Assembly: GCA_043228905.1 (NCBI GenBank)
Contig: JBHGNT010000013.1
Coordinates: forward strand, 2,914,001 to 2,978,000
Length of the DNA: 64,000 nucleotides
Source of the DNA: Azolla caroliniana
Lineage: Eukaryota > Plantae > Polypodiophyta
Direction: 5' to 3'
Shown: piece after piece, positions 1 through 46,940 of the stretch
Layout: every line of letters begins with the position of its first letter
Numbering within the stretch: the stretch's first letter is position 1
The notes under the pieces: model-generated
Told to the model about the DNA's origin: nothing
Databases searched by the model: none
What the model saw: the letters and a program-made list of their open reading frames with translations, nothing else
Made by a program: the position numbers and the translations under genes

Positions 1-236
1 CAACCATTACAATCCCTAATCGCAAGATGCGACTTTTCTTTGCAAAACTTTGGCTTTGAACTCTTGACTTCAATTTTAAAACACAAAACTCTTTGCAAAT
101 AAACTAAGTTATTTGATTTTCTAACTTTCTCCTGATTCCTTCCTTCATAATTTCCCTTTTTCTTATAGGTTCCCCCATGCTTATGATGCATGTTAGGGTA
201 CAAGACATGCATGTAACGCATGATCGCCATTTGGCG

Positions 237-394
237 TAGAAAAGAGGTGGAGTCTTAACTACTTACTAAGTATGTGTCATAGGTCTTAACTTATATGACA
301 CATTAGTTATGATACAGAGGAGGTGGGGTGTCCACATACTTGGGTTTTCCTAAGGTGTGTTCCCACACTAGGGAAGTGAGTTTGATTCTCAACA
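237..394 (-). mobile_element. Truncated 5' LTR of copia CA (partner of the LTR at 10580-10962), inverted
   Basis: Reverse complement (TGTTGAGAATCAAACTC...CACCTCTTTTCTA) closely matches 10580-10737; preceded on the minus strand by GTAAC (plus 395-399 gttac), the same 5-mer that follows the 10962 LTR end. Confidence 0.9.
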
Positions 395-639
395 GTTACC
401 TTAACTTGTCCCCATAAATCTTTAATAATCAAATCATACGTACCCCTTGAGAATGCAAAATGCATAGGGGAACAATACATGAAGGGATCCACCGCCTCAT
501 CCTCATGAACGGAATCAGATGAGTCATTTGGCATCTCCAATTCGTCCTTAGATACAAACGATGCAATGGATGACCATAACGTATCCTCCAATTCATCGTC
601 TAACATGGAAAAGACACCATGATGCAGTGTGTTGTCCAT
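395..639 (-). pseudogene. N-terminal part of the MULE-like transposase, separated from its body at 10963+
   Basis: ORF MDNTLHH...WGQVKVT joins in frame via the GTAAC TSD to VTLEALRDVARG...VLASHGD at 10963-11100. Confidence 0.8.
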
Positions 640-659
640 AGATGGTTGTTGTCAATTAC

Positions 660-1230
660 AACGGTGATTGAAGTGATTGAATACAATGTGACTAAGAATG
701 CCAATGATTGAGGTGAATGAATTCAGTGTGAGCGAGTATGCCAATGAATCAAGTGAATGAATTCAGCTCTTAGTGAATGATCGAGAATGCGAGCTCTTAG
801 TGAATGAATTCAGCTCTTAGTGAATGATCGAGAATGCGAGCTCTTAGTGAATGATCTCAACAAGAATGCCAATGATTGAGGTGAATGAATTCAGTGTGAG
901 CGATTATGGCAATGAATGAAGTGAATGACTTTAGCTCTTAGTGAATGATCGAGAATGCGAGCTTTTAGTGCATGATCTCAGCGAGAATGCCAGTGATTGA
1001 GGTGAATGAATTTAGTGTGAGCGATTATGGCAATGAATAAAGTGAATGACTTTAGCTCTTAGTGAATGATCGAGAATGCGAGCTTTTAGTGCATGATCTC
1101 AGCGAGAATGCCAATGATTGAGGTGAATGAAATTAGTGTGGGCGATTATGCCAATGAATGAAGTGAATGTCAATGACTTTAGTGAATCAATCCAGTGTGA
1201 GCGATTATGCAACGAAAATGGTCGTTAGTA
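660..1230. repeat. Tandem array, ~121-bp period, built from GTGAATGA sub-repeats
   Basis: gaatgcc(a)atgattgaggtgaatga recurs at 696, 864, 985, 1106; lies directly upstream of the transposase start on the minus strand. Confidence 0.9.
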
Positions 1231-1277
1231 TGATCGTTGAAGCACAATGATTACACATAGTTGGGAACCTGCATATT

Positions 1278-1430
1278 AATGAGTCAGGCTCCTCATTAAT
1301 GAGTCGGGCATTATATGATGTCCAACATTTATCGATCACTACAATGAGTATAGTGAGTATAGTGAGGGAAGTCGGGCTCCTTCTTGTTTAATTATCCAGG
1401 CTCCTAATTAATGAATCGGGCTCCTTCGTA
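1278..1430. repeat. Cluster of GTCGGGCTCC-type motifs (probable transposon subterminal/internal repeats)
   Basis: gagtcaggctcc, gagtcgggc, agtcgggctcc, aatcgggctcc; same motif is arrayed at 14009-14220. Confidence 0.6.
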
Positions 1431-1835
1431 ATACAAATTTAAACATACTCAAATTTCACATTCAAAAGATAAGTTGAATATACAAATTTCATATCAAATT
1501 GAATAAGATGCACATCGTGCATACAAAAGATACCTTCAACCTATTCAAATTTCATTATACACAAAAGATACATTGAATAAGTTTCGAACATTGAATAAGA
1601 TTCACACTGAGCATACAATAGATACAACCGATTCAAAATTTCACACTATGGATACAAAACATTGTCACCACATACAAAAGATACCTTCAACCTATTCAAA
1701 TTTCATATACAAAAGATTGAATGAATTTCGAACATTGAATAAGATTCACAATGAGCATACAAAAGATTCATATTGATTCATATATAACCAAAATGAGATT
1801 CAAATATTGTTTTGATATTACAAAATTAACCATAT

Positions 1836-4800
1836 TGTGGTATTACCATGGATCCTAACCAAGGCCCCACCTAACCAGGGTCACATTGACCACACCCAAA
1901 TTAGGTCCCTACCAAGCCCCCATAATTAGAGGAGCTAATTGGAGCGGGAAAACACCCACCACGCTAAGAGTAGCCTATAAGATGTAACTTAGAACGTAAT
2001 AGAAAGGGAGCTATTTTGAGAGCATTTCACATCTTCATGGAGAAGACGGGCAAAGCAGCCCCAACTCACGACCCCAACAACACACGCCACGATGCAACAT
2101 GACAACAACAACGGCAACACAAACTCCATGAATCCAAAATTCCTACAACAACAAACTCAAGAACATCAGCCCACATTGCCAATCGACCAACTGGTTCAGG
2201 CCCTGTCCAACATTATTTTACAAGTTAACCATACTAACCAAGCCATGTTGTCATTCCTCTCAGCACAATCCAAGCCACAACAAAATCTCCCGGACCCGCG
2301 AGTTCGGCCAAAACCATTCTCCGGCCTACCATTGGAAGCCGTCGTCTCTTGGCTGGATCATTTCGAAATGGTGGCCAGTTACCACCACTAGCCACACCCC
2401 TGGAAGGCAATAGAAATGAAGACACTCCTTGAGAATATCGCAACAACATGGCTCGTACAACAACCCGAGGAGACACGCAACGACTGGGATCTGTTACGGG
2501 CAACCATGATTTGGAATTTGGCTCATCAGGACTCCCGTCATACAGCCCTACAACAACTCAAGTCAATCACCCAGCAGCCACGCGAACCCATCACCCAGTT
2601 CACGGTTCGGTTTGTGCAGATCCTACGTCGGGTTGACGACAACATGTCGGAAGACATGAAGTTGTTTTTCTTCTAGCCGCGTATACGGCACGACCTCCAT
2701 CGTCGTGTATGTGATCAAGGCCTGGAGACACTACATGAAGCCATCCTCACCGCCCAACGCATCGAAGCTGCAGACGCACACAACCTGCACACACCAGGTA
2801 ATCTCAGTCACGATCATACAAACACTACTCCAGGCGCCACTCCCATGGACATCGATGTCTAGAACGTGCAGTTACGCACTAAGCGTGCATTGCCCGAACG
2901 AGACAGCCAGGGACGCCCCAAATGTTTATACTGCAACAACTATGGCCACATCCGGCGTTACTGCAGAAAGTGGCAAAATCAACAACAAAAGCAGAACGTC
3001 CAATTAGCCAATGTTGCCTCCCTCTCTGAGCTCCCGGAAAACTAATGCACGAGGTGTCGTAGGGAGAGCCGCCCCCGCACGTCCACACCTCCACGTCATC
3101 AACTTCTCCCATTTATACCATGATCGAGCCACCCATGCACGTCCACACCTCCACGTCATCAACTTCTCCTGTTTGTACCACGATCGCCCGCCTCTAGCAC
3201 ACGACCCAAGAAGTTCTCCTCGACTCCGACAACAACATCTCTTCCATTAGTGTAGATTTAGTCACCCAATTGCAACTTCCCACGAGCCACGCACCGCCCA
3301 TTAAAATCCTCTTCGGCGACCAGCAGCGGTTGTACCACTCACATACGCAAGTCATGTGCATGCTCACCATCAGTTCTGCTCGTATCCAACATCGTTGTTC
3401 CCAATCACCTTGGGTTGCGATTGGTTCCTCCATAGTCGAGCCTGTCTCGATTTCTCCTCGTAACAGCTCGTCCTCCCCAATCACCTTTCGATCGCGCTCT
3501 TCACTAATCCGCGAGATACCACCCACATCAGCAACACACAGTACCTGGTATCACCAACAAAGCACATCCACGACATCTGATGGCTCCTAGCCACCTTTCC
3601 CTCGTTGTCTACACCACCTGCAAAGCCTCCCTCGGTCCGCTTTCCAATCCACCACACGATTCCTACAGGCAACGCCCGCCCTATCAGCGCAGCTCCCTGA
3701 CGTCGCTCCCCTCTCGACCACGAGCGCATCGAGAACGCCGTCAAAACTATGCTACAATAGGGGATTATCACGCCTTCCAACAACGAGTGGATCTCGGAGC
3801 CACACATGGTCAAAAAAGGGGATGGCTCTTACCGTTTTTGTGTCAACTTCCGACAACTGAAACATGTCACCACCCATGACCGATATCCTGTCCCTCGTAT
3901 CGACGACCTCCTTTTCCAGCTTGGCAAATCAAAGTACTTCTCCTCCCTCGATCTGGCCTCGAGATATTGGCAGATCGCTATGAATCCTGAAGATGCCCAC
4001 AAAACTGCATTCCGCACTAGGAAAGGCATTTTTGAGTTCACACGGATGCCCTTCGACCTATCCGACGTTGGGAGCACATTCCAGCGAATGGCTAACGCCA
4101 TCTTCAACGATCTCATCACCTGTCGCGTCGTCATTGTCTATCTAGACGATATTCTGATACATACAAGCACCTGGGCGGAACACCTCAAAGTTCTTAAGGA
4201 GGTCCTAACTTGTGTTCAACGCTATTGATTACAGTTGCAATGGAAGAAGTGTCGTTGGGGTAGTACGTGCCTCTGCTTCCTCAGGTACGTCATCTCCTCC
4301 GACAGAATACAGATGGACCCAGAGAAGACGGAAGCAGTCCAAAAATTCCCACACCCCACCACAGTCAAGCAACTTCAACGCTTCATCGGCCTCCTCACGT
4401 TCTCTCTCCGCTTCATCCCACAGCTAGCCGACCTGTCAGCCCCACTACGCACCCTTCCTATGGACTGACGCTTGTGAATCTAGCTTCCTACAACTCAAGA
4501 GAACACTCCAAGCCTCTGACCTCTTGGCACACCCTAATTTCATGAAGCCTTTCCATCTGCAGACGGATGCCTCCAACGTCGGCCTTGGCGCGGTCCTGCT
4601 CCAATCCGACGACAACGACCAACTACACCCGATTGCCTACATAAGCCAATCACTTACCAAAGCCGAACAAAATTACTCGACAAATGAGAAAGAGTTGCTC
4701 GCCATCGTTTGGGCATTCCATCGTTTCCACTTGTACCTACACGGATCAAACACATTGGTCGAAACCGACCATCAGCCATTGCTCTCCCTCATAAAGAAGG

Positions 4801-6452
4801 CTCACCCACCCTGTCGCTTACTCCGTTGGGCTTTGGCGTTGCAGGATTACACATTCACTCTGCACTATCGCCGCGGTCCCCAGAACATCGTCGCCGATGG
4901 ATTATCCCGCATATCCTTTCAGGTGAACCAAATCGCTTCCGGCACAATCGATTTCCCTGTATCCTCGTCCCAAATGGCCAACATGCAACAACACGACAAA
5001 AAGATCCAAGACATCTGCCACCACCTACAGGTTGAGCCCTCATCCCTCACCAAGCAATTCATGATCCAGGATAATGTCCTGCTTTTTTTCCAAGTAGGCA
5101 AGGAACCTCGGGTCTACGTGCCTGAGCAACTGCGCTTGTCTTACCTTCGTTTCTTCCACAATCACCCGTTGTCCGGCCACTTGGGTTTTCACAAGGTGCT
5201 AGACATTATCCATTGCAAATTCTATTGGTTGGGGCTACGCCACGAGGTCGCCTCCTACATCAAAGCATGCAACTCATGTCAGGCCATCAAAACACCTCAA
5301 GTGGCTCAAGGCCTCTTACATCAGATACAGGTTCAAGCTCCATTTGAAATCGTCGGATGGGACATTCTGGGCCCCTCTCCCGAGTCACAAGAAGGGAACA
5401 AATTCATCCTCGTCATAACCAAGTACTTGACGCGTTGGGCTGAGACGACCACTATCCCAGATGCGAAGGCTATGACCATCGCCACCAAATTGTTGGAGAA
5501 AATCATCTTCCCCCATGGTTGCCCACTCCAAATCTTGTCTGATCGGGGACCCCAATTCAACAACGAGCTCCTACGTCTCGTTTCTACACAATTAGGAATC
5601 CAACAATTATTCATGTCACCCTACCACCCGCAGACGAATGGATTGATAGAGTGCCTCAACCGAACCTTAAAACAACAAATCTCGGCCTACATCGATCCGC
5701 TGCACTCAACCTGGGACCGGATCTTGCCCTTCGTTACGCACGCCTATAACACAATTGTGCAAGCCTCCACCCGCATTAGCCCCTTCTTGGCCCTTTACGG
5801 CAGGGACCCGCGCTTACCTCCAGAAGTGGCAGTCCCGCAACCAACCACGCCACTCCACTTTGACGCAGTGTCCTAGTGGTCCCACCTGCAACAACTCCAG
5901 CCCCTCCTCTGCAAAGCCATCACGAGCAACCTACACCAAGCATAGCTACGCCAAAAACGCCAACACGATGCAAGCCACACCAATCATCAATACCACGCCG
6001 GTGACAAAGTCCTCGTCTATTTCCCCATCCGTCATTGCGGCCTGAGCGAGTCACTCTACCGATGGATCGGTCCCTTCGAAGTTCAAAAGCAGATATGCAA
6101 CACTACATACATGCTCTGTCACACCTCCAACAACCGCTCTACCTTCGCCCACTAGTCTCGCATGAAGCCCTTCCATCAACTACCACCGCCCACGCCGTGC
6201 CATCCCTCCGCCTAGAACCGTCGTCCACGCCCCGTCGCGCTCCGACTGTACAGTACTGTGGTATTGCCACGGATCCTAACCAAGGCCCCAACTAACCAGG
6301 GTCACATTGACCATACCCAAATTAGACCCCTACCAAGCTCCCATAATTAGAAGAGCTAATTGGAGCAGGAAAACACCCACCACGCTAAGAGTAGCCTATA
6401 AGATGTAACTTAGAATGTAATGGAAAGGGAGCTATTTTGAGAGCATTTCACA
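1836..6452 (+). mobile_element. Ty3/gypsy retrotransposon G1, full length but degenerate; 196-bp LTRs 1836-2031 and 6257-6452
   Basis: TGTGG...TTTCACA LTR pair, 4-bp TSD ATAT, gag-PR-RT-RH-IN order. Confidence 0.95.
2092..6180 (+). pseudogene. G1 gag-pol with several stops and frameshifts
   Basis: gag with CLYCNNYGHIRRYC knuckle ending GGAAAAC-TAA (3036-3045); PR VLLDSD; RT YLDD; RH TDAS...ETDH; IN HPLSGHLG...C..C, SDRGPQF; no chromodomain seen. Confidence 0.9.
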
Positions 6453-6849
6453 ATATACAAATGGCCAAGAATATACAAAAAAGGTTGGTCACCTTGATTC
6501 CAAAATACAAAAAAAGTTGGCAGCCTTGGTTTAGGATTACAAAAAAGGTTGGCAGCCTTGATTCTAATATCCAGCCACCGGGCAATATACAGAAAAGATA
6601 TACAACCTGGTCACAAAAAAACTATATACAACCAGCTTACAAAAAATATATACAAAAAAGGTTGGCAACCCACATTTGATAGTACACCGCATTTGATGTT
6701 ACAAAGTACAACTCCAAATGATTAAAATATGGGAAAGCCCACAATCCTTCGTGCCCATTTCACCATGATTTTCCCAAGGAGCTCCACGTCTTCGAATCCA
6801 AACCATTGCTCCTTACCCTACACCACAAGATGCCATCAACCTTAAGCCC

Positions 6850-7045
6850 TTACAGAAACAAATGCTCATATTCAATCCTAAGTCATAGTTACAAAATCAT
6901 TGGACTCAAATCCTTGCATGAACTCCTCGACCAACATCTGAATGGTTTGGATCACGTAATACCCACAATCTGTCCCATTAGGTTGGGTCGGACTGATCGG
7001 GAGCCTCATCTATCTCACAATCACTCAACCCGACTTCAACTACCC
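6850..7045 (-). pseudogene. ULP1/SENP-like (peptidase C48) catalytic-Cys fragment, transposon-borne
   Basis: Minus-strand translation ...MRLPISPTQPNGTDCGYYVIQTIQML... fits the Q-x-N-x-x-D-C-G motif; upstream stops; cut off by the LTR at 7046. Confidence 0.7.
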
Positions 7046-7460
7046 TGTTGGTCTTTAAAAGAATATGTGTGCGGAAGCGTATGCGTAAGAACACAAAGTA
7101 CACGGTTCGGTAGTACGATAGTTCGATAAAGCACAAAAATCACACACAGAGAGAGAGAGAGAGCAGAAAATACAAAACTATATTCAAACTAGTCCTCTAT
7201 GTACATATTTCGTGCTCAGTGAGCACCTTTTATACAAGCCCCGACCATTGGGCTGACACCAGTATTGACAGTACTTGACCGCTCATAAATGAGCCTTCTA
7301 CACTAACTCCCAAAACTATTCCTTACGAGGAATAACGTTCTAACGGCCTCACGGTTTACGCACCGCCACAACCATATTTTGCGTACGGTTTTACGCATCC
7401 AGTCTACGTATTGGGTTACGTACCCATTTATGCACCCAATGTTGAGCTTGTCTCTCAACA
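7046..7460 (-). mobile_element. Single copia-type LTR with non-matching flanks (probable recombinant LTR at an inversion breakpoint)
   Basis: TGTTGG...CTCAACA; minus-strand start TGTTGAGAGACAAGCTCAAC like other copia LTRs here; flanks TACCC vs CGGTT differ. Confidence 0.8.
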
Positions 7461-7463
7461 CGG

Positions 7464-8213
7464 TGTCGTGAAGAAAACCGGCCTTAGGCGGAATCGGTGA
7501 AAAAGGCGTGCGAACCGGCCCTTACACGCGGGCACAAGTATTGATAAGGAGTACATAATTACGAATAGGTAGGCTGATGAAAATATCCTAGGAAGATTAT
7601 TAATAGGCTAGTGAATCGAAGCGGATCTCTGTCCAAAGGGACAGAGAATAAAAGTGATGTGACCAAGGTGAGGGTGTAATGGTCCCTCCCCGGCGGCCTA
7701 TAAAAGGGAAGGGAAGAAGACTGAGAAGGTATCGCGTTTTGGGCAAGGACGCGGTGTTGTTGGACCGGGAACTGAGCTCTCTCCTCCTCTTTCATTGTTC
7801 TCTACAGGATTCTATGTTGGTTGCCTCTACTTCGAGGAAAGCCATGTGCCTTCTACTAAGGCTCTACTGTGTGTGTGCGTGGGTGTGTGATTGTCTGGGT
7901 TGGGTCTGTCGCCTGCTAGCTGGCTGTAATCTTGCAAACACTGTAATCGTTACTAATATTGTAATTGAATCTCCTGTTTTTCGTCTATCTGTGTTCCTAT
8001 GAGTCTCCCTTTTCTTTTCCTTTCCACGAGCGTGCTTCTTGTTCAGTCGGTATACGCGTTGGTGGTTCATTCGGCCAGCAAGCGTTGTCGGTTGCAACAT
8101 GCCTAACCGGCCCTGCTTGCACGCTTCCCCCTTCCTCTTCTTTCTCTTGCTTCTCGGTTCAGGGCCCCCGTGGCCCTGCCTTATTTCCCACACGAAAGCG
8201 AAACAACACGACA
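7464..8213 (+). mobile_element. Solo LTR (750 bp)
   Basis: TGTCGTG...CACGACA terminal inverted 7-mer, 4-bp TSD ACGG, TATA-like CTATAAAAGG near 7698. Confidence 0.88.
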
Positions 8214-9289
8214 ACGGTTTCCTTAGCCAATTCATGCAAAAGCCACGTGACACTCACTTGGATTGTGCTAAGCGAGTGTTAAGATACGCGAGTGGTACAA
8301 TGGATTGTGGCATCTCTCTACAAGACAACAATGCCAATTTGACACGAAGGGCACATAGATGCCGACTAGGCCAGCTACAAAGCCGATCGATCGACCTCTA
8401 GATTTGTTTTCTCCCTTGGCAGCGGAGCCATCTCCTAGAGTAGCAAGAAGCAACCAACCGTCGCTCTTTCAAGCACAAAGGCCGAATACAGGGGCGCGGC
8501 GGTGACTACATGTGAAGTCGTATGGCTCAAGAGGATTTTGAAGGATCTGGGTGTTCCCATCAAAGATCCAACTCCCCATTACTATGACACCATGAGCAGT
8601 ATTTATCTGGCTCAGAACCTGGTGTTCCACGCATGCACGAAGCATATCGACGTGCACTATCACTTCATTCGAGGGCGTGTTCAGGCTAGAGATGTTGACC
8701 TTCAACACATCAACACGAATCCACAAAAAACCGACATCTTCACCAAAGCCCTAGGAGCTGACAAGCTTTGGCAATTCATGTCAGACCTTGGATTGACAAT
8801 CCCTGACTTGCCAAGCTTGAGGGGCAGTACAAGAGAGAACCGGATACCGTCTGAACTGGGTACCAACCGAAGCGGACATCAACCGAAAGGAGCTGACCCA
8901 AGTTGAGCTTGAGGGGGCATGTTGAGAATCAAGCTCAACCTAAACTAGTGTGTGAACACACCCTTGAGAGTGTATGAACACTCAAAGGTCAAAAGTCACA
9001 CCACTACTCTCTACACATTAACTATGTGTCATAGAATCATATGAGTTTCCACATTCCCCATGATCGATGAGCTTCGGTAGGTAATGACGAAAGAGGGTGA
9101 CTATATAAAGCACCCTCCTCCTACTTTGTAATGTGTCAGTTAATCTCCTTTGTAATATACATCTTCTTGAGTATTCGATTTCTATCTATCTTGTGTCTCC
9201 CTCCTCTCCTCTTCTCAAACACACACGCACGCATGCAACACACATCTCTAACCTATTCCGCTGCACAAAATCACCATCGATTCTTTACA
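8214..9289 (+). mobile_element. 3' half of copia CB (RT end, RNase H, PPT, 3' LTR 8920-9289), nested in the RT of copia CA
   Basis: SQFMQKPRDTHLDCAKRVLRY, KHIDVHYHFIR, DIFTKAL; PPT GAGGGGGCA; LTR TGTTGAG...TTTACA. Confidence 0.9.
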
Positions 9290-10863
9290 AGTCTTAAGCA
9301 GGGACCAGGAGCACGACATTCGAAGATAACCCAATATCTTCACCAAATCGGCTTCAAAATGTCCAAGTGCACGCACCATATTAACATTAGTATGTTCGAC
9401 AATTCTCTGTTCATCCGGAGCGACTCCAAAGGACAACTATTCATCATAATTTATGTGGATGACTTGGTCATTGGAGGAGAGCACATAGGTGATATCGAAC
9501 ATACCAAGAAGCTACTCTCTAGCTTATTCAAAATGAAAGACATGAAGGAGCTACATTACTTTCTAGGGATAGAAGTAATTTGGTCTCTAAACGGTATCAT
9601 GATCTCCCAACAACACTATATCCTGAATATTCTCTTCAAGTTTGGGATGACGGAGTGTAAGCTCATCGTTACCCCGCTCAATTGAAATCTAAGGTTAGAT
9701 GTCGTTTCCAGCACAGAAGAGTGTGAGCCAACTTTCTATCGTCAGCTAGTCGAAAGCCTTATCTATCTCACCATTACTTGACCCAACCTCAACTATCCGG
9801 TCGGCCTCCTTAGCCAGTTTGACACCATGCAACATCCATCTGGACTGTGCTAAACGAGTGTTACGCTATGTAAGTGGGACGATGGATTTCGGCATCCTCT
9901 ACTGATTGGCCACACCGATTCGACTTGAAGGGTACACCGAGCTAATTGTGCTAGCAACAAAGCCGACAGATGATCAACATTGGGATTTTTCTTCTCCCTC
10001 GGTAGCGGCGCCATATCATGGAATAGTAAGAAGCAGCTGCCAGTCGCATTGTTGAGCACAGAAGCTGAATATAGGGGCGCAACCGTCGCCGCATGTGAAG
10101 CCGTTTGGCTCAAGAGAATATTAAAGGATTTGGGCGTTCCCATCAAGGATCTATTTCTCATGTATTGCCACAACATGAGCAGCATTCACTTGGCCCGCAA
10201 CCCAGTTTTCCATGCTCGGACTAAGCACATTGAGGTGCATTATCACTTCATCTGAGAATGTGTCTTGGTTGGTGATGTCGCCCTACAACACATCAGCATG
10301 AACCTACAAACGGCGACATCTTCACGAAGGCCCTAAGAGCCGACAAGCTACGGTAGTTCACGACAAACCTCGGTCTCTCGATCACCGACCAACCGAGCTT
10401 GAGGGGGAGTATGGAATAGTTAGATAAGGAACCATCTAACATGACGTCGAACGGACCAGAGTGAACTCAATTGTGAGCTGGCCATCCAAAAAAAGTCGGA
10501 GTCGAAGCCAACTCAAAGCCGACCCAAAGACCAATCCGAACCAAATTTTTGGCGACCGGAAGTTGTGTTTGAAGGGGAGTGTTGAGAATCAAACTCAACT
10601 TCCCTAGTGTGGGAACACTCCTTAGGAACACCCAAGTGTGTGGACACCCCACCTCCTTTGTATCATACTAATGTGTCATAGAAGTTAAGACCTATGACAC
10701 ATACTTAGCAAGTAGTTAAGACTCCACCTCTTTTCTATGAGGTGACTCTAATGAGAGAACTTAGAGAGAAGGTGACTACATAAGCACCTTCTCCCTCTCC
10801 TTGTAAGTGTGTTGGTTTTCTTATTCTTGTTAATACAGTTTTTTCTTGTTCTCTGTAGAAATC

Positions 10864-10896
<33 letters not shown>

Positions 10897-10962
10897 GCTA
10901 TGCACACACACATAAACACATATATCTCTTCCGCTGCACAGAATCATATCTGATTCTTTACA
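9290..10962 (+). mobile_element. 3' half of copia CA (RT YVDD, RNase H, PPT, 3' LTR 10580-10962)
   Basis: IIIYVDDLVI, ISWNSKKQ..VALLSTEAEY, RTKHIEVHYHF; PPT GAAGGGGAG; LTR followed by GTAAC. Confidence 0.92.
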
Positions 10963-13705
10963 GTAACATTAGAAGCATTACGTGATGTCGCAAGGGGTGC
11001 ACCTCTCATACTCAGGAATGAGAGTGTAATCTACCTTAAGGCATCACCTAATCTTCAAGTAATATATGTCGAGAAATGGAGGGAGGTAGTGTTAGCGTCA
11101 CATGGTGACGCATCCCATCACACATTTTCAAAGACTCTTAAAGAATTAACGCAGGGTTATGCGACTGATGTACGTGATTATGTCATCAAACCGAAGTATG
11201 TAAAAGCACTCATTAGAAGTTGTGGTTGCCGAATGGTGTTGAAGGTTGATCCGAACGACATGTTGGGAGCGAGCATGGACAAATATAAGAAGACCCTACC
11301 CATAGAAGCGATCAAGGTAGAAACCCACCAGTCCGCTGATGCGCTCACGGATTTGCAAACCAAGTTTCTCACACGCTTAAGGAAAGGAGTCTACGTGGGT
11401 ATGCGTGTGACTAGGTATAGTTGTCATCGTGCTGGGACATCTCGACTTACGTCTAATTCCACTCGACGACGTAGGTGCACACCCCGATGTGGGTGTACAT
11501 TCCATGTGGATGTTAGAATGAATGATGGGGTTAACAATGAGACACTAACCATTTCAATATATGGACCTCACAATGGCCATGTACTAGGTAGTAGGTCGGA
11601 TGTGTACCATTTGCCAACACACCTCAAATGTCATAAGTTGTTGCAAAGATGACCTATTTGATGTTTGGTGTGAAGGCATGTGGCACGAATGAGCATGCGT
11701 AAGCAAGAATATCATAGGTCCAAGGCTAGTCCATTAGAGCTTGTTAGCTATAGGTTCTTTATGATACCAAAGGTGGTCCATAACATGGCAAATAGGTTAA
11801 AAATCAGGAGTGCCATGTCAGAGGTTGATTGGTCTTTGATGATGCAAGATGCCTATGCACTCCGAGATCTTGGGAAAGTGGCTCATATTCAACCTTACCT
11901 GCCTGGTGAACCAGGATCTCCGGCCAGGCAACAATTTATCTTGATACTTCAAGATCAATGGATGTTGGAAATGTGTGAGCAATTGACCCTAAACAACTCT
12001 TGGGGAATCAACTCAACATTTTAAATAAACCAATTCAGGCTACCATTATATACAAATGTTGCCCCCAACGCCATGGGAATTGGGATGGCCTTATGGTACA
12101 TGCTTTGTAGTTCTGATAGAGGATCAAACAATGAGCAAGTCGCATTAGAAACTTGCTTGAGTCATATTTGCAAAGATGCCCATAGTGAGGCCAAATGCGA
12201 TAATGATTGATAAATGTTGCACATCATATAATGCCATAACTAATGTGGTTGCAACAGACCGTCAATATTGGATTGTTCTAAATAGGAAATGGTCGCAAAC
12301 ACACATGTCGACTTTTGTTGTGTCAGTTCACGCCAAAAAATCATGGGTGGAAAACTTGTTGCCAAAAGTAAGTGCAATTGGGAGAAACCATCTTTATCAA
12401 CGAATGTGCCAACTGATGCATTGCATTACTGAATCCGCATTCAATGTGATGTGTGTGGAGTTAAAGGTAGAATATGCAGACAAGCCCGGTGTTTGGCAAT
12501 ATATAGAAGGAGGATGGTGTGGTTTGACATGTGTGTGGAGGAAACTCTGGCCCAAGTTTGGTAGAATGTTCAACGACGAGCATGTTGACACTACCTATAT
12601 TGTGGAAAGACATTGGCAGTTTATCAAGTACACTGCCTTGAGAGGAAGAATAAATAGATCAATTACCAATCTTGTGCATGTCTTAATCGGGGACAATGAA
12701 ACTGGCACTTGCATCAGAGGAACGGTCGTAGAGTGGTACAAGCAACGACAAGAAATATGTGAGAGTGGTCGATTAGCACCCCGTGCAATTTATAGGGATC
12801 AAAGGTCCAGACTTAAAGAGGCCAAGAGAATATTGGAAAGGTATGTCGACGATACTTCCACAATGCATATTGTGGACGAGGCTTGATATTGGTTTAGAAT
12901 CTTGAGCATGGTATAATGTCTCACTCCAATGCTCATATTGTGATTGCCAAGACCTTGTGAGTAAATGCAAGCATTTACTCAGTATCTGAATGATTATAGA
13001 GAGGCACATGCCACATTTATGTGGGTTGTTGCCTTTTATAGACCACACGACCCAACTGCGAATGGACCACAATACAGAAATAGAAGTGGAGACAGAGGTA
13101 GAAGGAGTCGGGGAGACAAATCCCACAACATCAGAGATGGAATTATTGAAGTCCAAAATACAAACATTTGAGGAAGCACTTCAATGGCTCAAGCATGGGT
13201 TAGGAACCTTCGACTATGCAACTATTTTGGAATGTATACAAACATTGGAAGATATGACTGAGAACGTGTATCACATTGGTGCACCAAAATCACCTAATGA
13301 AGAAGATGACAAATCAATAAGTCGCAACCAACAAATAGGTGCCACAAGTAGCGCAACAATAGATATCTCGCAATAACTTATTGGCAACTCCCCAAACACT
13401 TCCAAATCCCACATAAGAAAACTACAAAGAGGTGCAACTCGGGCTAGGTGGCGATTGCCAATATGTGATCATGAGAAGGTTCGGTGTTTGTGTTGCGATG
13501 GATCAACCTTGACTTCAAGGGACTCGACTGTTCCAAATCCCACATAAGAAAACTACAAAGAGGTGCAAATCGGGCTAGGTGGCGATTGCCAATATGTGAT
13601 CATGAGAAGGTTCGGTGTTTGCGTTGCGATGGATCAACCTTGACTTCAAGGGACTCGACTGTTACATGTTGTAAAAATTGTGGTTGCATTTTGCCATCAG
13701 CCTGA
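10963..13705 (+). pseudogene. Mutator/MULE-like DDE transposase with N-terminal FAR1/WRKY-like finger and SWIM finger; disrupted
   Basis: YSCHRAG...RCGCTF...HNGH; WGINSTF (DSTF-like), AIMIDKC, HAKKSW, DTTYIVERHW; CDC...CKH SWIM near 12935-12980; C-terminal CxxC pairs; stops and frameshifts. Confidence 0.8.
13400..13661. repeat. 131-bp direct tandem duplication in the transposase C-terminus
   Basis: ttccaaatcccacataagaaaactac...gactcgactg at 13400 and 13531. Confidence 0.92.
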
Positions 13706-14008
13706 CATGAGCCATAATCTTAATATGTAACATGTATTCATATTTCATCTTAGGTTTTTTGGCTTGGATTATTCCTATTTTTGACATTTGACGTTTTAAT
13801 CTTTTATGTAAGACTTGTTATTTGAAACTTTAAGTTGATTTGTTATTTAGAGCTTGGAGATAGAACTTTGTGTGATTTTTACGTTTTACGTTTTAGGTTT
13901 TCAACAATTGGAAGTTTAGGTTTCTTTTGAGATATTTTATGCATCATTTTCATGGCAAGTATTTGTTGTACACTTACAATTTTTGGGAGTTTTTGATGTC
14001 TGTTTCTA

Positions 14009-14220
14009 AGTCGGGCTCTAGGTGACTAGAGGCTGTCAGATAGCGGGGCTCCTTCTAACAGGGTCGGGCTCCAGGTGACTAGAGGCTGTCAGATAGCGGG
14101 GCTCCTTCTGACAGGTTCGAGCTCCTGGTGACAAAGGTTGTCAGACAGCAGGGCTCCATTTGACAGAGTCGGGCTCTTGGTAACAACAAGGCTTCTGGTG
14201 ACAGAGTCGGGCTCTTGGTG
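14009..14220. repeat. Subterminal-type tandem array (~53-bp units with GTCGGGCTC / GGGGCTCC cores)
   Basis: gtcgggctc(t/c)aggtgactagaggctgtcagatagcggggctcc repeated, plus degenerate copies. Confidence 0.8.
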
Positions 14221-14360
14221 GTTTATGCTGTCAGCTTTTTTTTATCCACATCGGACTTTGGAGATCGCACGTGCCATCAACTGTGCAACCTGCACCGTCC
14301 GAGCTTGCGATTCCCTCACTTGCCCTGATAAATTTTTGGTAGTAGTTAGACACGAGCATG

Positions 14361-14465
14361 CCCATGTCCATCCATGTCCATGTCCATCCATGTCCATGTC
14401 CATCCATGTCCATGTCCATCCATGTCCATGTCCATGCCCATGTCCATGTCCATGCCCATGTCCAT
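14361..14465. repeat. (CCATGT)n microsatellite
   Basis: Directly visible. Confidence 0.95.
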
Positions 14466-14529
14466 ATACCTTGGGGAATGAATGGAATCCATGGGTTAGT
14501 TTAGTTTACCTTCTCCTTTTTCATACTGT

Positions 14530-14960
14530 TTTTAGGGTTAGGGAATAGCAACATTAGGGTTTTGGCTACTCCCCACCCTTCCCTCCCTACGAACTCATAA
14601 ATCCTTGAAACCCACGTTTCTATGGCATATTGGGTTGTTGGGGATCTGCTCGGGAATCCGATTGGTTGCTCATCAGCAGCAGACACATTCCTTGCTTAGA
14701 GACCCCTTCCGGAAAGCCTGCTTTCTTACTCTGGAAGCCTTGATCCTAACCATAGACTCCCAGAAAACCTAACCCTAGCCATCGCAAGAAAACGTAACCC
14801 TAGCCTCTGGAAGCATCGGAACCTAAAGCGAAGAAGTTCTGAGAAATCCCAATCCCAATCCCAATCCCAATCCCAATCGGAACCTCTCAATAAACCCAAC
14901 TCTGATTATAGCCTCGGAAAACCCTATTCCCTACCCCCAACACCTAACCTAACCCTAACG
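14530..14960 (+). promoter_or_regulatory. Probable UBA1 promoter/5' region with telo-box motifs
   Basis: TAGGGTTT at 14555, AAACCCTA at 14919, several AACCCTA(G/A), (CCCAAT)n near 14848-14877, upstream of ATG 15150. Confidence 0.5.
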
Positions 14961-15149
14961 TAGTCAAAACTGGCTCTTTCTGCCAGAATCCGCGTTTTCT
15001 GGGAGTTTCTCATCTCTACATTTTCAGGGTTTGTCCTGATCCTCTGTTAATCCTTCTTTTTCTATCATTTGAATTCTTCATTTTCTGCATTGATTGAATA
15101 GGTATGTGTTTGGCTATATGCTGTTGTTTTGGGCAGGTATTTAATCTAT

Positions 15150-15423
15150 ATGCTTCCTAAGAAGAGGGGAATCAGCGGAACAGAAGAAGAGGAATCGTCA
15201 TCAGTAAACATTTATACAAAGAAACCAATGCCTGAGGATTGTATCTCTAGAGGAAGAGAAGAAGAAATGCAAGAGGATACGGCTTCTTCTGGTCAGGGTG
15301 GAATGGACATTGACGAGAATCTTCATAGTAGGCAGTTAGCTGTCTATGGTAGAGAGACTATGCGCCGGGTCTTCGGTGCAAACGTCCTCATCTCTGGTCT
15401 TAATGGCCTTGGGGTTGAAATAG
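15150..15423 (+). CDS. UBA1: Ubiquitin-activating enzyme E1, coding exon 1 of 6
   Basis: MLPKKR...[20 protein letters not shown]...GLNGLGVEI; donor G|GTAAAG. Confidence 0.92.
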
Positions 15424-18042
15424 GTAAAGGATCTCTCCACAATAACCCACAATTGTGTTAACTAGTGTAATCAGATAATTCAAATTGTTTGAAATTTTCT
15501 CTTTTAAACCATTGTCCTGGACTCTAATTGTTTATGAAGATATAGGGAAGAATCGGCTTACAACAATTCACTATTGTGTGAACTAATGTAATTGGATCGT
15601 GTAAATTTGTTTGAGATGATATTTTTTTGAGTATTTTCTTGTATTATGATGATATAGGTAATGAAAAATGTGCTAACTAGTATAACCAGATAATGTTGAT
15701 TTGTTTATAACATTATCATTTGAAACATTGTTGTGGATTCTGTAGTGTTATGAGGGTATAGGCATGGATGTATTTCCAATTACTAATAATTGGGTCAACT
15801 AGGCTAACCAGATAGGTTCCCAAGGTAACCAAAACCAGTGACATAATTGACCATGCAAGAAATTTAGTAATGGATCTATGTCTAGTATATGACAATGTGT
15901 CAGTCATAGTCTCATGCATATCTCTTCAACTTTTCCACATTCGGGCCACACAATTGAAACTGCAAACGTAGTTTTAACTACGCATTTCAAAAGGTTTTAA
16001 AGGAATCTAAAATGGGTGGTTGTGGATGTGTTATGGACTGTAATCTCTTATAAGTATTATTGTTCACCTGTCCATGAAAGTCTGCATGACTGTCTGGATG
16101 TATGTTGTAAGTTTGAGAATGGCCATATGCTCATATAGATTGATAGATAGATTTCATTAATGTCTTTGGATGTAAAATTTGACCTATGAGGCCAAATATA
16201 TAACATTTTTCACGTGATAGTGAGTAGTGGCTTTAGATGTTCAAGAACTGTAGTAATGAATGTGTTAGATTTGTGAGCGAGAGAGAAATTTGTGCAAGGA
16301 TTTGGTTTGGTCGAAGATGGTGGAAATCATATTCCATTGAGATCAAAGGCAGAGCATTGTATCCAAATTGCGATACTCAGACTCCTGAGCTTGTGCAAAT
16401 AAGAATCCACATTGTGATTGGGAGAGAGATTTGTGCAAGGATTGGGTTCGGTTGAACATGTGTGAAAAGCATAGTTGATTGTGATCAAAGGCAGAACATT
16501 GTATGAACTAGTGATACTCAGACTCCTGAAATTGTTTAAGGCAAAGTGTGCAGAATCAACTACTCCCATTGCTTGTGCCCCAATGGCCCCATCATATATC
16601 TGCAGTGGAAGAGAAACAATTACAACTATTACAGGAAGGAGTAAAATGGTCGAATAACTTTGAATTCCATACTCAAGAGTGCTCTCTCAAGATGTGAGGA
16701 TTTGGAGCATGTTCTTCTCATACATACAGAAAGAAGAACTGGGCTTCTCTCTTCTCTTGGATCCTTACTAACGTGAGAATCTTATCTTCTAAGTTTGAAG
16801 GACGAGGTTTATGAAAAGAATGGAGTTTCATCTGGAAATGGTTAATAAAGAAAGAGATGAGACTCCAACTCATTACTCTGTGCAAGAGGATATTTTTGTA
16901 CATATTTTCTGAACTTTATTACCCATGACCGTTCGGAAATTGGGTGGGGATCCGCTGAATTTTATTTCATGTGTGAATCTGTACATGAATGAAGACAATC
17001 GGACTTGAATTGATCACTTCAAACTTGCATAACGTGCATTTTGTTGATTGAATAAAAGAGTTTCTATTATTAAACAAACTAGAAAACTTTTGGAACAAAT
17101 GATTAGCCTATTTGTATAATTATAAGAATTGGCTCTTACAACATTGAAGATCTCCAGCTTCCGGGATGTTGTGAAGAATTTCAATTCTTCTGACAATACA
17201 TAAGTACCGAGATAATTGATTTGGTTGACCTTTCTACTGTGCATAATACAAAATTATCCAAGAAGTAAGCAAGTTCGGCTTTTAGAAATGCTTGTGTATG
17301 CACATGTGAGAAAAAGGCATTTATCTTGATAATACAGTTTTCAATTGCTTTCTGGAAGCATTTTGTTCATTCTACTAGTGCATGAAAATATTGATGTACC
17401 GACTCTAGTAAGATAATGAAGATAGCTAATGTTACCTTGGAATTATTATTTCAGATTTTAGTAGTATAATGCTTTATCTTGGGGGCTTCATGCCTTGGAG
17501 TTGAAACAGATAATGATCGTAAATGATTTCAAATGCTTTCATCAAAGCATTGTCTTGGGTTATAATAACATATTATGATAGTGATGTATACTCTACTGCA
17601 TTTCCTTCTGGTTTTTGGCTTTGCTGGAAGAATAAGGTATTTATGCCCATGTGTATATGGATAGACACATCCACTTGTGAGAAGTTATTATCTTGATAGT
17701 GCAGATTTCAGATGCTCCCTATGAAGCATTCGTTTGAAACCTAGGTGTATACAATGTCTTTCATGGCCTAGGAATTTTGGATTTTTGAAGCCAAAAAAAC
17801 ACAATGCTGAACTTACCATCTTGATTTACCCAACCAGAGATGTCAAATGTCAATGGATTCCATAGTAGCTCCGTCTCTCACACCTAAATTGTTCCAAAAC
17901 CATCTCCAAAGTTATTGCACTACATGAATTATGATTATTGTCATGGATCTTTAGAAAACCTGGAGCATTTATTTTTGTTTCAATATGGATAACTTGAATT
18001 CACCCGTATTTGTAAACTCAATTTGTCTAGTAGGCTGATTTT

Positions 18043-18670
18043 GGCCTCTAATAGACATCAGTTTCTCTCTCATGCCATTGGGTCAAACCATGATATTTCT
18101 GAGCATTACATGTAAGGCGTTTGAAGCATCAAAGCAAACAGCAACAGCAAAACATGTAGATGGTCATGGTACTCACATGTGATGTGGTTCAACAACAATG
18201 GCCTCGATTTCGAGAACTTGGCTTCCTTTTGATATTGCTCACCCCTTTTTATGGCCTCTAGTAGACATTAATCTCTCTCTCTCTCTCATGCCACTGTATT
18301 TTGAACCATGCTAATTCTGAGAATTATACGTAAGGTGTTTGAAGCATCAAAGCAAACAGCAACAGCAAAACATGTAGATGGTCATGGTACTCACATGTGA
18401 TGTGGTTCAACAACAATGGCCTCGATTTCGAGAACTTGGGTTCCTTTCGATATTGCTCACCCGTTTTTATGGCCTCTAGTAGACATTAATCTCTCTCTCT
18501 CTCTCATGCCACTGTATTTTGAACCATGCTACTTCTGAGAATTATACGTAAGGTGTTTGAAGCATCAATGCAAATGACAATGACAAAACATGCAGATGGT
18601 CATGATACCCCCATGTGATGATGTGGTTCAACAACAATAGCATCAGCTTTGAGAACCCCTTTTGATATTG
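18043..18670. repeat. Three tandem copies of a ~215-bp unit in UBA1 intron 1
   Basis: ggcctcta(a/g)tagacat...catgtagatggtcatg...gatattg starting near 18043, 18254, 18471. Confidence 0.88.
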
Positions 18671-19329
18671 TTAAAGAATTGTTGAAGGAACAAGGTGTTG
18701 CAGCAAGACCTATGGCAGGGCTATACCCAAAAGACTTTGCTCACGACTACAGAGTTACTTTCTTCAAAGATGGCTTACAATGAAAGATCATTTCATGGTT
18801 TTTTTAGATGATGAACTCATACATTGACCAAGGTACATGGATGTCTCTACAATACCCCATGGTGCTTGCAAAGCAATCAGCCAACTCAAAGTTTCCTCCC
18901 ACCAAGTAGAGATCGAGGCAGGATGATCACTTCGCATACCTAGAGCTGAATTTTTTTGCGAATTATGAGGGGAGATTAAAAGCGAGAAACACTTTGTGTA
19001 GGTTCCAACTCTTAACGACGTAAGAGAGAAATATATTACTCGCTACATGGATTACACCAATATTCAACAAATGATGGAGAAGGCCGATCCACGCAATTGT
19101 ACATCAATTATTTCTTCCATAGCACCTTACCTCCATAGCAATGATCCAAGGAGTCACTATTGAGTGAGTAAAGAAATGTGATAATGGAGAGTACTAGTAC
19201 CAAGATACAAGGCATGGATCATACCAGTACCAAATCATGGAGATCATTGCTTGTGATGCCCGATTCACTTGTCAACCTTTGTAATAATGTCATTTTGTTG
19301 CACCAATCAACCTTGGATATGATGTCCAG

Positions 19330-20300
19330 TTGCCACTACTCCTATGCATAGTAGCCATGTACTTCATGATTCTAAACCATCTCAAATATCATTCCACCAT
19401 AGGCATTAAGATGGAGTTCAGGATATTTAGAAACCTAGAGATTTATTTTGGTTTCAGCATGGATGACATGAATTCGCCTTTAGATTTAATTATGCAATCT
19501 CATAGGCCGATTTTGGTCTCTATTAAATGTTAATATATCTTTTTTTCTTTCATTGGAGTGAAACAAGGATGCTACTATTCGGTCTCTATATAGATGAGGC
19601 ATCACATTATATAGAGAGATTCAATGGTTCGGGATACAAATATTACTATATGCTGATGATATTTTGCTGATCTGTGACACTTCGGGGCCACTACAAAGAC
19701 ATCTAAATGCCTTAAAATATTTTATATGCACAAAGGTTTGTCTGTAAACTTAGATAAAACTAAAGTGTGATGTTTAACACCATGCAAGCGTGGGTAACAA
19801 GATCAGAACCAAGATTCTTTTTGGGAAAGCAAAACGTGGCATACACATGATTCTAGCAGTAACGTTCAACGGTTCGGGATACAAATATTACTATATGCTG
19901 ATGATATTTTGCTGATTTGTGACACTTCGGGGCAATACAAAGCCATCGAAATGCCTTGAAAGTATTTTATACGCACAAAGGTTTGTCAGTAGATGTAGAT
20001 AAAACTAAAGTGTGATGTTAACACCATGCAAGCGTGGGTAACAAGATCACAACCAAGATTGTTCGTGGGAGAGCAAAACGTGGCATACACATGATCCTAG
20101 GAGTAACGTTCAAATGGCCTCAGTTCTCCTTATGAGAGTATTTGTGTGTGCTTTACTTTCTCGTGGATACGTAGCCCTTGGTGCTCTTGAAAGACAATAT
20201 GCACGTTTGAGTTCCAACATCTTAAAAGATGTAAATATGTCTTTCTTTCTTTCTCGCACCCCAGAACCCCACATAAAAGTATAGTATATTTTGTAAACAT
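19330..20300 (+). mobile_element. Degenerate LINE RT fragment in UBA1 intron 1, with an internal ~245-bp duplication
   Basis: IGVKQG...LFGLYIDE...QILLYADDILLI...LQRHLNAL...GLSVNLDKTKV; YADD segment appears twice (~19648, ~19893). Confidence 0.8.
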
Positions 20301-20443
20301 ATATGCGAAGTAGGATGTTCTTAACATAGAATGAACTTTCTTGGTTCACTACTGCCATGCATTAGGTGAAGTCAAGGTGATTTATTTTTTGAAAAATGCT
20401 CGTTTTCATTGTTCTGAACTTTGTGTAACAAATATGAATGCAG

Positions 20444-20661
20444 CAAAGAATGTTGTACTTGCTGGTGTCAAATCTGTTGTGCTGCATGACACGAAGTCTG
20501 TCAAGGCATTGGATCTGGGGGCAAACTTCTACTTTTCAGAGGCTGATATAGGGAAGAATAGAGCATCTGCTTGTGCTTCTAAGCTACAAGAGTTGAATAC
20601 AGCTGTTCTTGTCACAATACATACATCAGAAATAACCGAAGAGTTACTGTCTGGATTTCAG
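20444..20661 (+). CDS. UBA1: UBA1 coding exon 2
   Basis: TGCAG| AKNVVLAGVKSV...LQELN...GFQ |GT; phase matches exon 1 across a 5020-bp intron. Confidence 0.92.
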
Positions 20662-20867
20662 GTTGTACATGCTGTACTGACAGCTCCATTGTAATGTCAG
20701 AACCTGATATGCTATTGCTATACATTTATTTGGGAATCATACTATAATTGGATTGTATGCAAGCAAATACTAGGCATTTGTCTGGATACCATATAAGTTA
20801 ACATGCCTCATGATGAATGGCATTGTGATATTTATAATCCTTCCTAAAAATGGATTGTTTATTTCAG

Positions 20868-21662
20868 GTTGTTGTCTTTATGGACATCTCCCTAGAGAAA
20901 GCAATTTCTTATGATAATTTCTGTCGCCGGAAAGAATCACCAATTGCCTTCATAAAGGCTGATGTTCGTGGGCTTTTTGGGACTGTGTTCTGTGACTTCG
21001 GCCCAGAGTTCACTGTTTTTGATGTTGATGGAGAAGAACCTCATACAGGTATTATTGCATCTATTAGCAATGGTAATCCAGCTTTGGTATCATGTGTTGA
21101 TGATGAGCGCCTAGAATTCCAAGATGGAGAGATGGTCATTTTCTCTGAGATACATGGAATGAACGAGCTAAATGATGGAAAACCAAGAAGGGTGACAAAT
21201 TGCAGGCCATACTCTTTTTTCCTTGAAGAAGATACCACCCCATTTGGAGTTCATGAGAAGGGAGGAATTGTTACTCAAGTGAAACAACCTAAGCTGCTTA
21301 ATTTCAAGTCATTAGAAGAAGCTTTACAGAATCCTGGTGAATTCTTGCTGAGTGATTTTGCAAAGTTTGATCGCCCTCCATTATTACATATGGCATTCCA
21401 GGCACTTGATAAGTTTTGTGCCGAATATGGACGGTTTCCAGTGGCTGGGAGCAGTGGTGATGCCTCAAATTTTATTTATTTGGTAAAAAAGCTCAATGAA
21501 AGCAGAGAAGATGCAGGTTTGGAATCAATTGATGAAGGGATTCTCAAGCATTTTGTTAATGGTGCCCAAGCAGTTCTCAATCCCATGGCAGCCATGTTTG
21601 GAGGCATTGTTGGACAAGAAGTAGTGAAGGCATGTTCGGGCAAGTTCCATCCTCTATTCCAG
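20868..21662 (+). CDS. UBA1: UBA1 coding exon 3
   Basis: TTTCAG| VVVF...DVDGEEP...[21 protein letters not shown] |GTGAG. Confidence 0.95.
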
Positions 21663-21768
21663 GTGAGTTTATCATTTTGTTCCGCAGGAAATCCTTAAAA
21701 TTTTATGAGTGAAATCAGGCGCTGAGGCACAGATATTGTTTGGTTGATTATGCTTCACGTTCTTACAG

Positions 21769-22637: not shown

Positions 22638-22920
22638 GTACTTGTTTTATTTCCTTTCTAGATTTGCTTTTATTTTTTCCTGCTTTGTAGAAAGGTCATG
22701 TATTAATAACAAAATTAAGAATATCATCTCATGATCTGTCAAAACATTGACACAACATGAGGCGTCAGTCCATCACTGGGTTTACTTTTTTCTTTTCAGT
22801 CTGCTGTTTATGTTTTCTCACCATGGGAATTTTTATGAGGTGATGGCTATGTTTTCTAGTAAAAAATGGGAATTCCTACGTTTTCCTTTTGGTTTAATGG
22901 TTTCAACCATGTAATGATTT

Positions 22921-46873: not shown

Positions 46874-46940
46874 TATGGCAAGACTCGAACCCATGAACTT
46901 ATGTTACATGGGTCGAGCTCTTGACCATTAGACTATATGT
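46874..46940 (-). promoter_or_regulatory. tRNA-like Pol III A-box/B-box module at the start of the G3 LTR (second copy ~59315-59381)
   Basis: rc TAGTCTAATGGTCAAG...GGGTTCGAGTC. Confidence 0.7.

What the first reader, a model, noticed from the sequence alone, without database searches (positions are those of the whole stretch)
237..11100. Inversion shown by a split transposase and a TSD whose two copies lie on opposite strands
Seen: copia CA's 5' LTR with its GTAAC TSD is on the minus strand (394 down to 237), while its 3' LTR and GTAAC are on plus (10580-10967). Removing the copia joins ...WGQVKVT to LEALRDV... in frame into the 11089 ORF. Inference: the DNA from left of the window up to ~7046 was inverted after the copia inserted, a rearrangement ending ~8 kb upstream of UBA1.
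Basis: partly seen in the sequence, partly recalled or inferred. Interest (0 to 1): 0.7.

Follow-up and report, generated by a model that had tools for sequence, protein, structure and literature searches.

The report
Inversion inside a dead transposon nest
A block of at least 6.7 kb inside a dead plant transposon, already broken by nested retrotransposons, lies flipped, likely through ordinary repair of DNA breaks; the one breakpoint found touches no host gene, so this is a well-supported but ordinary rearrangement.

Summary
Intact relatives show that 639→395 (−) and 10963→13693 (+) are two halves of one MULE transposase, and 7 of 36 family loci carry a single GTAAC at the join, so GTAAC is the copia's target-site duplication, now on opposite strands. 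The block 237–6991 is collinear, in reverse, with intact Ulp1-carrying MULEs. Two corrections. (1) The right breakpoint is 6991|6992, not ~7046: a blunt join, without microhomology, filler, LTR or TIR, between the MULE's Ulp1 gene (−) and the reverse transcriptase of the nested copia CB (+). Contigs from two samples of two studies carry the join (28–83 letters a side, short of the tool's 31-letter rule). (2) The minus-strand LTR stops after 158 of 383 bases at an unrelated stretch (1–236), so the left end is unresolved: a later insertion, or a second breakpoint with deletion. Likely mechanism: two double-strand breaks rejoined by end-joining. The 8.2 kb upstream of UBA1 is not inverted. Real, neatly diagnosed, ordinary; interest 0.2.

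The parts
1..236 (.). Unidentified stretch, likely a repeat, that cuts off the inverted CA LTR; either a later insertion or the far side of the left breakpoint
   Evidence: No match in the window or in 36 family loci; no Pfam hit; no protein homologue (weak search); join 236|237 bridged by contigs 106-292 (X2) and 134-292 (X3); a high-depth contig covers position 169 in X5
237..394 (-). First 158 nt of the 5' LTR of copia CA
   Evidence: 93% to 10580-10737; K2P 0.040 +/- 0.015 over 156 sites
395..399 (-). Target-site duplication GTAAC, left copy
   Evidence: single GTAAC in 7 of 36 family loci
395..639 (-). N-terminus of the MULE transposase
   Evidence: tblastn P0001 1-77, E 2e-28; 83-84% DNA identity to L001-L003 and L019
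640..1835 (-). Spacer between Ulp1 and transposase, with 121-nt tandem repeats and GGAGCCCGA-type motifs; 1307-1341 is a 35-nt piece of transposase coding sequence absent at this place in L019
1836..6452 (+). Gypsy element G (LTRs 1836-2031 and 6257-6452, 4-bp TSD ATAT) inserted in the MULE spacer
   Evidence: RVT_1, RNase H, integrase Pfam hits; family contigs skip 1832 to 6455; LTR K2P 0.060
6453..6991 (-). 3' end of the MULE's Ulp1-like protease gene (QPNGTDCG motif; coding about 6991 to 6875) and its 3' flank
   Evidence: Peptidase_C48 E 3.9e-5; 86% to L019 7258-7609, ending exactly at 6991
6991..6992 (.). Right breakpoint: blunt join of Ulp1 (-) to copia RT (+)
   Evidence: Ulp1-family contigs end at 6991 and copia-family contigs start at 6992; junction contigs X1 6962-7019 (0 differences, depth 45.5) and X3 6909-7019 (2 differences, depth 9.4)
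6992..7053 (+). Short piece of copia CB reverse transcriptase
   Evidence: 79% to CA RT 9755-9807; family contigs jump 7031 to 8220 in all four runs
7054..7460 (-). Solo copia-type LTR X inserted in CB RT; degenerate 5-bp TSD TGGTC / CGGTT (inferred)
   Evidence: 70-74% to LTRs at 27407 and 60470; flanks read
7464..8213 (+). Solo LTR Y, 4-bp TSD ACGG, inserted at the X / RT boundary
   Evidence: Ends and flanks read; right end bridged by X2 8123-8525 and X5 8180-8386
8214..9289 (+). 3' part of copia CB: RT/RNase H end, purine tract, 3' LTR 8920-9289
   Evidence: 72% to CA 9841-10411; translation and ends
9290..10962 (+). 3' part of copia CA: RT/RNase H, purine tract, 3' LTR 10580-10962
   Evidence: RVT_2 E 4e-23
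10963..10967 (+). Target-site duplication GTAAC, right copy
10963..13696 (+). Rest of the MULE transposase, a pseudogene with stops, frameshifts, a 12-residue deletion near 11006 and a 136-nt tandem duplication at 13400-13666
   Evidence: tblastn P0001 74-958; 89% to L001
14234..14360 (+). 3' terminal inverted repeat of the MULE
   Evidence: 82% inverse match to the left end of L019 (3842-3948) and direct match to the right ends of L001-L004
15150..15422 (+). First coding exon of a UBA1-like gene (context only; not rearranged)
   Evidence: phmmer against PDB sequences, E 9e-9 to E1 ubiquitin-activating enzyme

Best explanation
A block of at least 6.7 kb (237–6991) inside one decayed Ulp1-carrying MULE lies reversed relative to the rest of the element, likely because two double-strand breaks, one in the Ulp1 gene and one in the nested copia CB, were rejoined the wrong way round by non-homologous end-joining. 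Order of events: the MULE inserts; copia CA inserts in its transposase (shown: TSD GTAAC and empty sites); CB inserts in CA's RT (shown for its right end only); solo LTRs X and Y sit in CB's RT (X's TSD inferred); then breaks in Ulp1 and in CB's RT are joined blunt (junction shown; repair pathway inferred). The partner junction, Ulp1 5' part to CB RT 5' part, is predicted to lie some 7–8 kb or more left of the window, with 1–236 a later insertion in the CA LTR (my odds 60%), or it is 236|237 itself with loss of the intervening DNA (40%).
For: Split transposase and single-GTAAC empty sites. The reversed block keeps the intact order Ulp1, spacer, transposase seen in L019 and L010. Homology to Ulp1 relatives ends at 6991 and homology to copia RT begins at 6992, with no shared and no extra base. 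No junction-spanning word of 5–10 nt recurs within 80 nt on either strand. No LTR or TIR lies at the join: the nearest LTR end is 62 nt away and has its own RT flanks, and the TIRs are 3.4 kb (in L019) and 7.2 kb away. The junction is present in contigs of two samples from two studies. End-joining is the main break-repair route in plants and can leave blunt junctions (PMC7156093, passages read).
Against: Only one of the two junctions is identified, and the expected continuation of the CA LTR left of 237 is absent. The 3.4-kb 5' part of the MULE is not in the window apart from the TIR match. No laid piece spans the whole region. A blunt join does not name the pathway: the wheat paper reads one blunt junction as more likely synthesis-dependent microhomology joining, and 1–2 bases of microhomology could have mutated since.
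Confidence: 0.75

Rival explanations
1. Deletion-inversion with both junctions in the window: the piece 237-6991 was cut out and put back reversed, and the rest of CA's 5' half, CB's 5' half and the MULE's 5' part were lost. This is a variant of the best explanation and shares its probability.
For: The CA LTR stops abruptly at 237 with no TG start or other clear element terminus; the join 236|237 is real DNA in two runs of two studies.
Against: 1-236 matches no MULE 5' sequence in 36 loci; it looks repetitive (depth 1027.6 at position 169 in X5); the locus has taken at least five other insertions.
Confidence: 0.3
2. Inverted copy by template switching: 237-6991 was copied in reverse from a sister, homologue or duplicate of this locus during repair, rather than flipped in place.
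For: A contig across the transposase/LTR join differs from the window at 5 of 132 letters (X1, 366-497), and contigs across 236|237 differ at 3-4 letters, so a second version of the region exists. A 35-nt templated insert at 1307-1341 shows that copying repair has acted here.
Against: No microhomology at 6991|6992; the variant contigs are as easily a second allele; each part of the nest occurs once in the window.
Confidence: 0.1
3. Ectopic recombination between two oppositely oriented LTRs, with X or Y as the hybrid LTR.
For: Two solo LTRs lie within 62-1200 nt of the break, and X's flanking 5-mers differ at 2 of 5 places. This is the commonest documented route (PMC3615480, PMC10447253, passages read).
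Against: Both flanks of X are consecutive RT sequence with a 5-nt overlap, and Y has a perfect ACGG duplication. Family contigs join 7031 to 8220. The strand switch is 62 nt left of X, in non-LTR sequence.
Confidence: 0.04
4. Aberrant transposition by the MULE transposase (alternative-ends type).
For: The break lies inside a MULE; alternative transposition is known to make inversions in maize (PMC8225341, listing and start of abstract only).
Against: Such breaks fall at element ends (established knowledge); this one is 3.4 kb from the left TIR position and 7.2 kb from the right TIR.
Confidence: 0.04
5. Assembly artefact.
For: Repeat-dense DNA; no long read seen; the best run holds only 0.40 of the sampled words and one run may be the assembly's own source.
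Against: Junction-spanning contigs in X1 (0 differences, depth 45.5, like other locus-specific contigs at 28-45) and in X3, a different sample and study. The join is in unique chimeric sequence, not in an inverted repeat where a contig could be flipped.
Confidence: 0.05

Closest known systems
Inversions in TE-rich plant genomes: Oryza brachyantha vs rice (PMC3615480; passages read)
   Same: Inversions are common (214 between the two genomes); about one third have no flanking inverted repeats, as at this junction.
   Different: Those were defined by gene order between species; this one lies within one transposon nest and is read from a single sequence.
TSD-diagnosed rearrangements among RLG_Cereba elements in einkorn centromeres (PMC10447253; passages and figure legends read)
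   Same: Same logic: 5-bp target-site duplications serve as diagnostic marks of a rearrangement, and later deletions hide some marks.
   Different: Those events are modelled as recombination between homologous retrotransposons; here the join is between unrelated sequences with no homology.
End-joining junctions in wheat indels (PMC7156093; passages read)
   Same: Breakpoints within TE DNA, blunt or filler-bearing junctions assigned to C-NHEJ or SD-MMEJ.
   Different: Mostly deletions; no nearby template for SD-MMEJ was found here.
Ulp1-carrying MULEs: KAONASHI in Arabidopsis, TIR-MULEs of melon, rice and grapevine (PMC2528002; passages read)
   Same: MULE transposase plus a Ulp1 (Peptidase_C48) domain within one element; both orientations are reported.
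   Different: This family has TIRs and Ulp1 upstream of the transposase on the same strand (L019); KAONASHI is non-TIR with Ulp1 reversed; in grapevine Ulp1 lies downstream.

Membership tests
Intrachromosomal inversion | A segment lies reversed relative to the ancestral arrangement | tested here: met
   395-6991 is collinear in reverse with L019 and L010, while 10963-14360 is collinear forward
Intrachromosomal inversion | Two reciprocal junctions | tested here: inconclusive
   One junction mapped; the partner is not identified; no genome held
Intrachromosomal inversion | Junction exists in DNA, not only in the assembly | tested here: met
Intrachromosomal inversion | Copy number unchanged (balanced) | not testable with these tools
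   Contig depth is no copy number; no genome held
End-joining (C-NHEJ-type) junction | No long homology, 0-2 nt microhomology, no or short filler | tested here: met
   0 shared and 0 extra bases against family sequences; no local template
Inversion by LTR-LTR ectopic recombination | A hybrid LTR with unmatched flanks at the breakpoint | tested here: not met
   Break is 62 nt from the nearest LTR; X and Y both have matching flanks
Alternative transposition | Breakpoint at a transposon terminus | tested here: not met
   No TIR at 6991|6992; 236|237 shows no match to this family's TIR
MULE (Mutator superfamily) | MULE transposase domain | tested here: met
   PF10551 above cut-off in P0001-P0003; the window's copy is 74-82% identical to P0001 but its own pieces did not reach the Pfam cut-off
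MULE (Mutator superfamily) | Long terminal inverted repeats | tested here: met
   14246-14353 matches the left end of L019 in inverse, 82%
MULE (Mutator superfamily) | 9-11 bp target-site duplication | not testable with these tools
   The element's left end is not in the window
Ty1/copia (CA) | RVT_2-type RT, TG...CA LTRs, purine tract, 5-bp TSD | tested here: met
   primer-binding site and gag-integrase half are not in the window

The most novel reading that the evidence does not exclude
The join at 6991|6992 is one end of a large chromosomal inversion, made by blunt end-joining and still polymorphic or fixed between the related plant lineages that share this locus, so that the UBA1 gene 8 kb away now borders a different chromosomal neighbourhood and marks the edge of a recombination-suppressed block.
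Probability: 0.07. Interest if true: 0.5.

Novelty: new member of a known kind. Interest (0 to 1): 0.2.

Why it matters
Little for biology as it stands: both sides of the mapped break are dead transposon DNA and no host gene is cut. It is a clean example of an inversion read to the base from one sequence, using a split transposase and a target-site duplication, and it shows that solo LTRs beside a breakpoint need not be its cause. The junction would serve as a PCR marker for comparing accessions. It would matter more only if the partner junction proved distant, or the inversion differed between lineages.

Tried and rejected
Own genome: none held, so the partner junction and the 5' halves of CA and CB could not be sought. 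First idea, that LTR X is a hybrid from ectopic recombination: rejected when 6992-7053 proved to be copia RT continuous with 8215 onward. Identity of 1-236: no match in the window or in 36 loci by blastn (best E 0.03) and tblastx (best E 0.085); no Pfam hit for its 83-residue minus frame; no exact match of a 35-letter pattern in metagenome contigs; no protein homologue for the plus frame read with X at its stops (weak search). Earlier scan notes: four look-ups returned nothing. No cover at 7060-7075 is an edge effect of the short stretch and not counted. No listed contig bridges 7053|7054, 7460-7464, 9289|9290 or 10962|10963, but both tables were cut (35062 and 1016 pieces not shown). Dating: LTR distances (CA 0.040, G 0.060, overlapping errors) do not order G against the inversion, and no rate is known for this lineage. 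Four paper searches were for general precedent; I did not search for a description of this locus and make no claim that it is absent from print.
Full report
What was checked. The stretch 394→237 on the minus strand matches the start of the LTR at 10580–10962 (93% over 167 nt; alignment). GTAAC stands at 399→395 before the minus LTR and at 10963–10967 after the plus LTR. A homologue search with the plus-strand frame gave three long proteins, all with the MULE domain above Pfam's cut-off. P0001 residues 1–77 map to 627→388 (−) and residues 74–958 to 10963→13693 (+), and the protein reads through the join unbroken. A scan of metagenome contigs gave 36 family loci; 7 of 36 hold both flanks side by side with one GTAAC between them. 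These contigs are short assemblies of a repeat and probably not independent, but one empty site is enough to show that GTAAC was duplicated by the copia.

Anatomy. The fullest relative, L019, runs: terminal inverted repeat, 3.4 kb, Ulp1-like protease, spacer, transposase, all on one strand. The window holds the same order in reverse from 6991 down to 395 (Ulp1 3' end, flank, gypsy G with TSD ATAT, spacer, transposase start) and forward from 10963 to the right TIR at about 14234–14360. Family contigs skip G exactly (joint 1832→6455 in 2 of 4 runs), so the DNA on both sides of G belongs to one element. Between 6992 and 10962 lie the 3' halves of two nested copias on plus: CB (to 9289) inside CA (to 10962). 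Their 5' halves are not in the window.

Where the break is. But 6992–7053 on plus is copia RT, 79% identical to CA's RT at 9755–9807, and it continues at 8215 with a 5-nt overlap (TGGTC / CGGTT, two transitions). So 7054–7460 is a solo LTR (X) inserted in CB's RT, and 7464–8213 a second solo LTR (Y) with a perfect ACGG duplication. Family contigs jump from 7031 to 8220 in 4 of 4 runs. The strand switch is at 6991|6992. Ulp1 relatives match up to 6991 and then diverge (L019, L020, L012, L013), and in each of four runs Ulp1-family contigs have loose ends behind 6988–6991 and copia-family contigs loose ends before 6992. No base is shared and none is extra, and no junction-spanning word of 5–10 nt recurs within 80 nt.

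Is it real DNA? Fourteen runs of six studies hold part of the region; five hold 0.22–0.40 of the words. In X1 a 58-nt contig, 6962–7019, matches with no difference at depth 45.5, similar to other identical contigs of that run (28–38); every 31-mer in it crosses the join. In X3, another sample and study, a 111-nt contig, 6909–7019, matches with two differences at depth 9.4. Among the eight pieces listed per run, none bridged the join in X4 or X5, and 1016 pieces were not shown. No piece spans the whole region, so phasing across X and Y rests on the internal logic of the nest, which is strong: matching transposase halves and matching RT halves.

The left end. A simple inversion predicts the remaining 225 nt of the CA LTR left of 237. 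They are not there: 1–236 is unrelated. The join 236|237 is bridged by contigs in X2 and X3, so it is real too. The stretch matches nothing I could search, including the 5' parts of the MULE relatives; a high-depth contig covers it in X5, which suggests a repeat. It may be one more insertion in a locus that has taken at least five, or the far side of the left break with several kb lost. With no genome held this stays open; my odds are 60:40 for insertion.

Mechanism. Shown: the reversed block, the order MULE, then CA, then CB, then the break (the break cuts CB), and a blunt join between unrelated sequences. Inferred: two breaks rejoined crosswise by end-joining. Recombination between LTRs fails because no hybrid LTR sits at the join; aberrant MULE transposition fails because no TIR does. 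An inverted copy by template switching is not excluded, since contigs show a second version of the region differing by 2–4%, though a second allele explains that as well. A 35-nt piece of transposase coding sequence at 1307–1341, identical to L001–L003 and absent at that place in L019, suggests that repair with templated filler has also acted here.

Comparison with what is known. Inversions are frequent in plant genomes, and about a third of 214 rice / O. brachyantha inversions lack flanking inverted repeats (PMC3615480, passages). TSDs were used as diagnostic marks of rearrangements in einkorn (PMC10447253, passages and legends). End-joining is the main repair route in plants and leaves blunt or filler junctions in wheat TE DNA (PMC7156093, passages). 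Ulp1-carrying MULEs are known from Arabidopsis, melon, rice and grapevine (PMC2528002, passages). I read no supplements; none bears on the claims made here.

Verdict. A real inversion, correctly spotted, with the right breakpoint corrected to 6991|6992 and the left end unresolved. It lies in dead transposon DNA; the 8158 nt up to the UBA1-like start codon at 15150 keep their orientation. New member of a known kind; interest 0.2.

Noticed in passing
window 1307-1341 (-): 35-nt piece of transposase coding sequence in the spacer upstream of the transposase, identical to L001-L003 but only 91% to this copy's own 12201-12235; absent at that place in L019. Likely templated filler from break repair.
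   Followed up: partly
window 1836-6452 and 7464-8213: Two LTR elements with 4-bp rather than 5-bp target-site duplications (ATAT, ACGG).
   Followed up: no
L019 3842-9382; also L006, L007, L010, L012, L013, L020: A TIR-bearing MULE family with a Ulp1-like protease gene upstream of the transposase on the same strand, and GGAGCCCGA-type motifs near both ends and in the spacer. L019 5832 onward holds a further open frame of 190 residues with several Cys and His residues, not identified.
   Followed up: partly
window 14234-15150: The MULE's right TIR ends about 790 nt upstream of the UBA1-like start codon, so the dead element abuts that gene's promoter region.
   Followed up: no
window 15150-24700: The UBA1-like gene continues in long plus-strand frames at 20335-24696, after a first intron region of about 5 kb with several tandem duplications (16271, 18039, 19620).
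   Followed up: no
window 106-292 and 366-497: Contigs across the 236|237 and 394|395 joins differ from the window by 2-4%, pointing to a second allele or copy that shares these joins.
   Followed up: partly
window 29105-39776, 46865-60103: Further nests: LTR pair 29968/34514 (K2P 0.006, recent) inside pair 29105/39451 (0.089); pair 50743/57301 (0.016) inside pair 46865/59306 (0.072).
   Followed up: no
L014, L036, L006, L016: Several family loci hold MULE pieces or TIRs in both orientations within a few kb, i.e. copies inserted in or beside each other.
   Followed up: no
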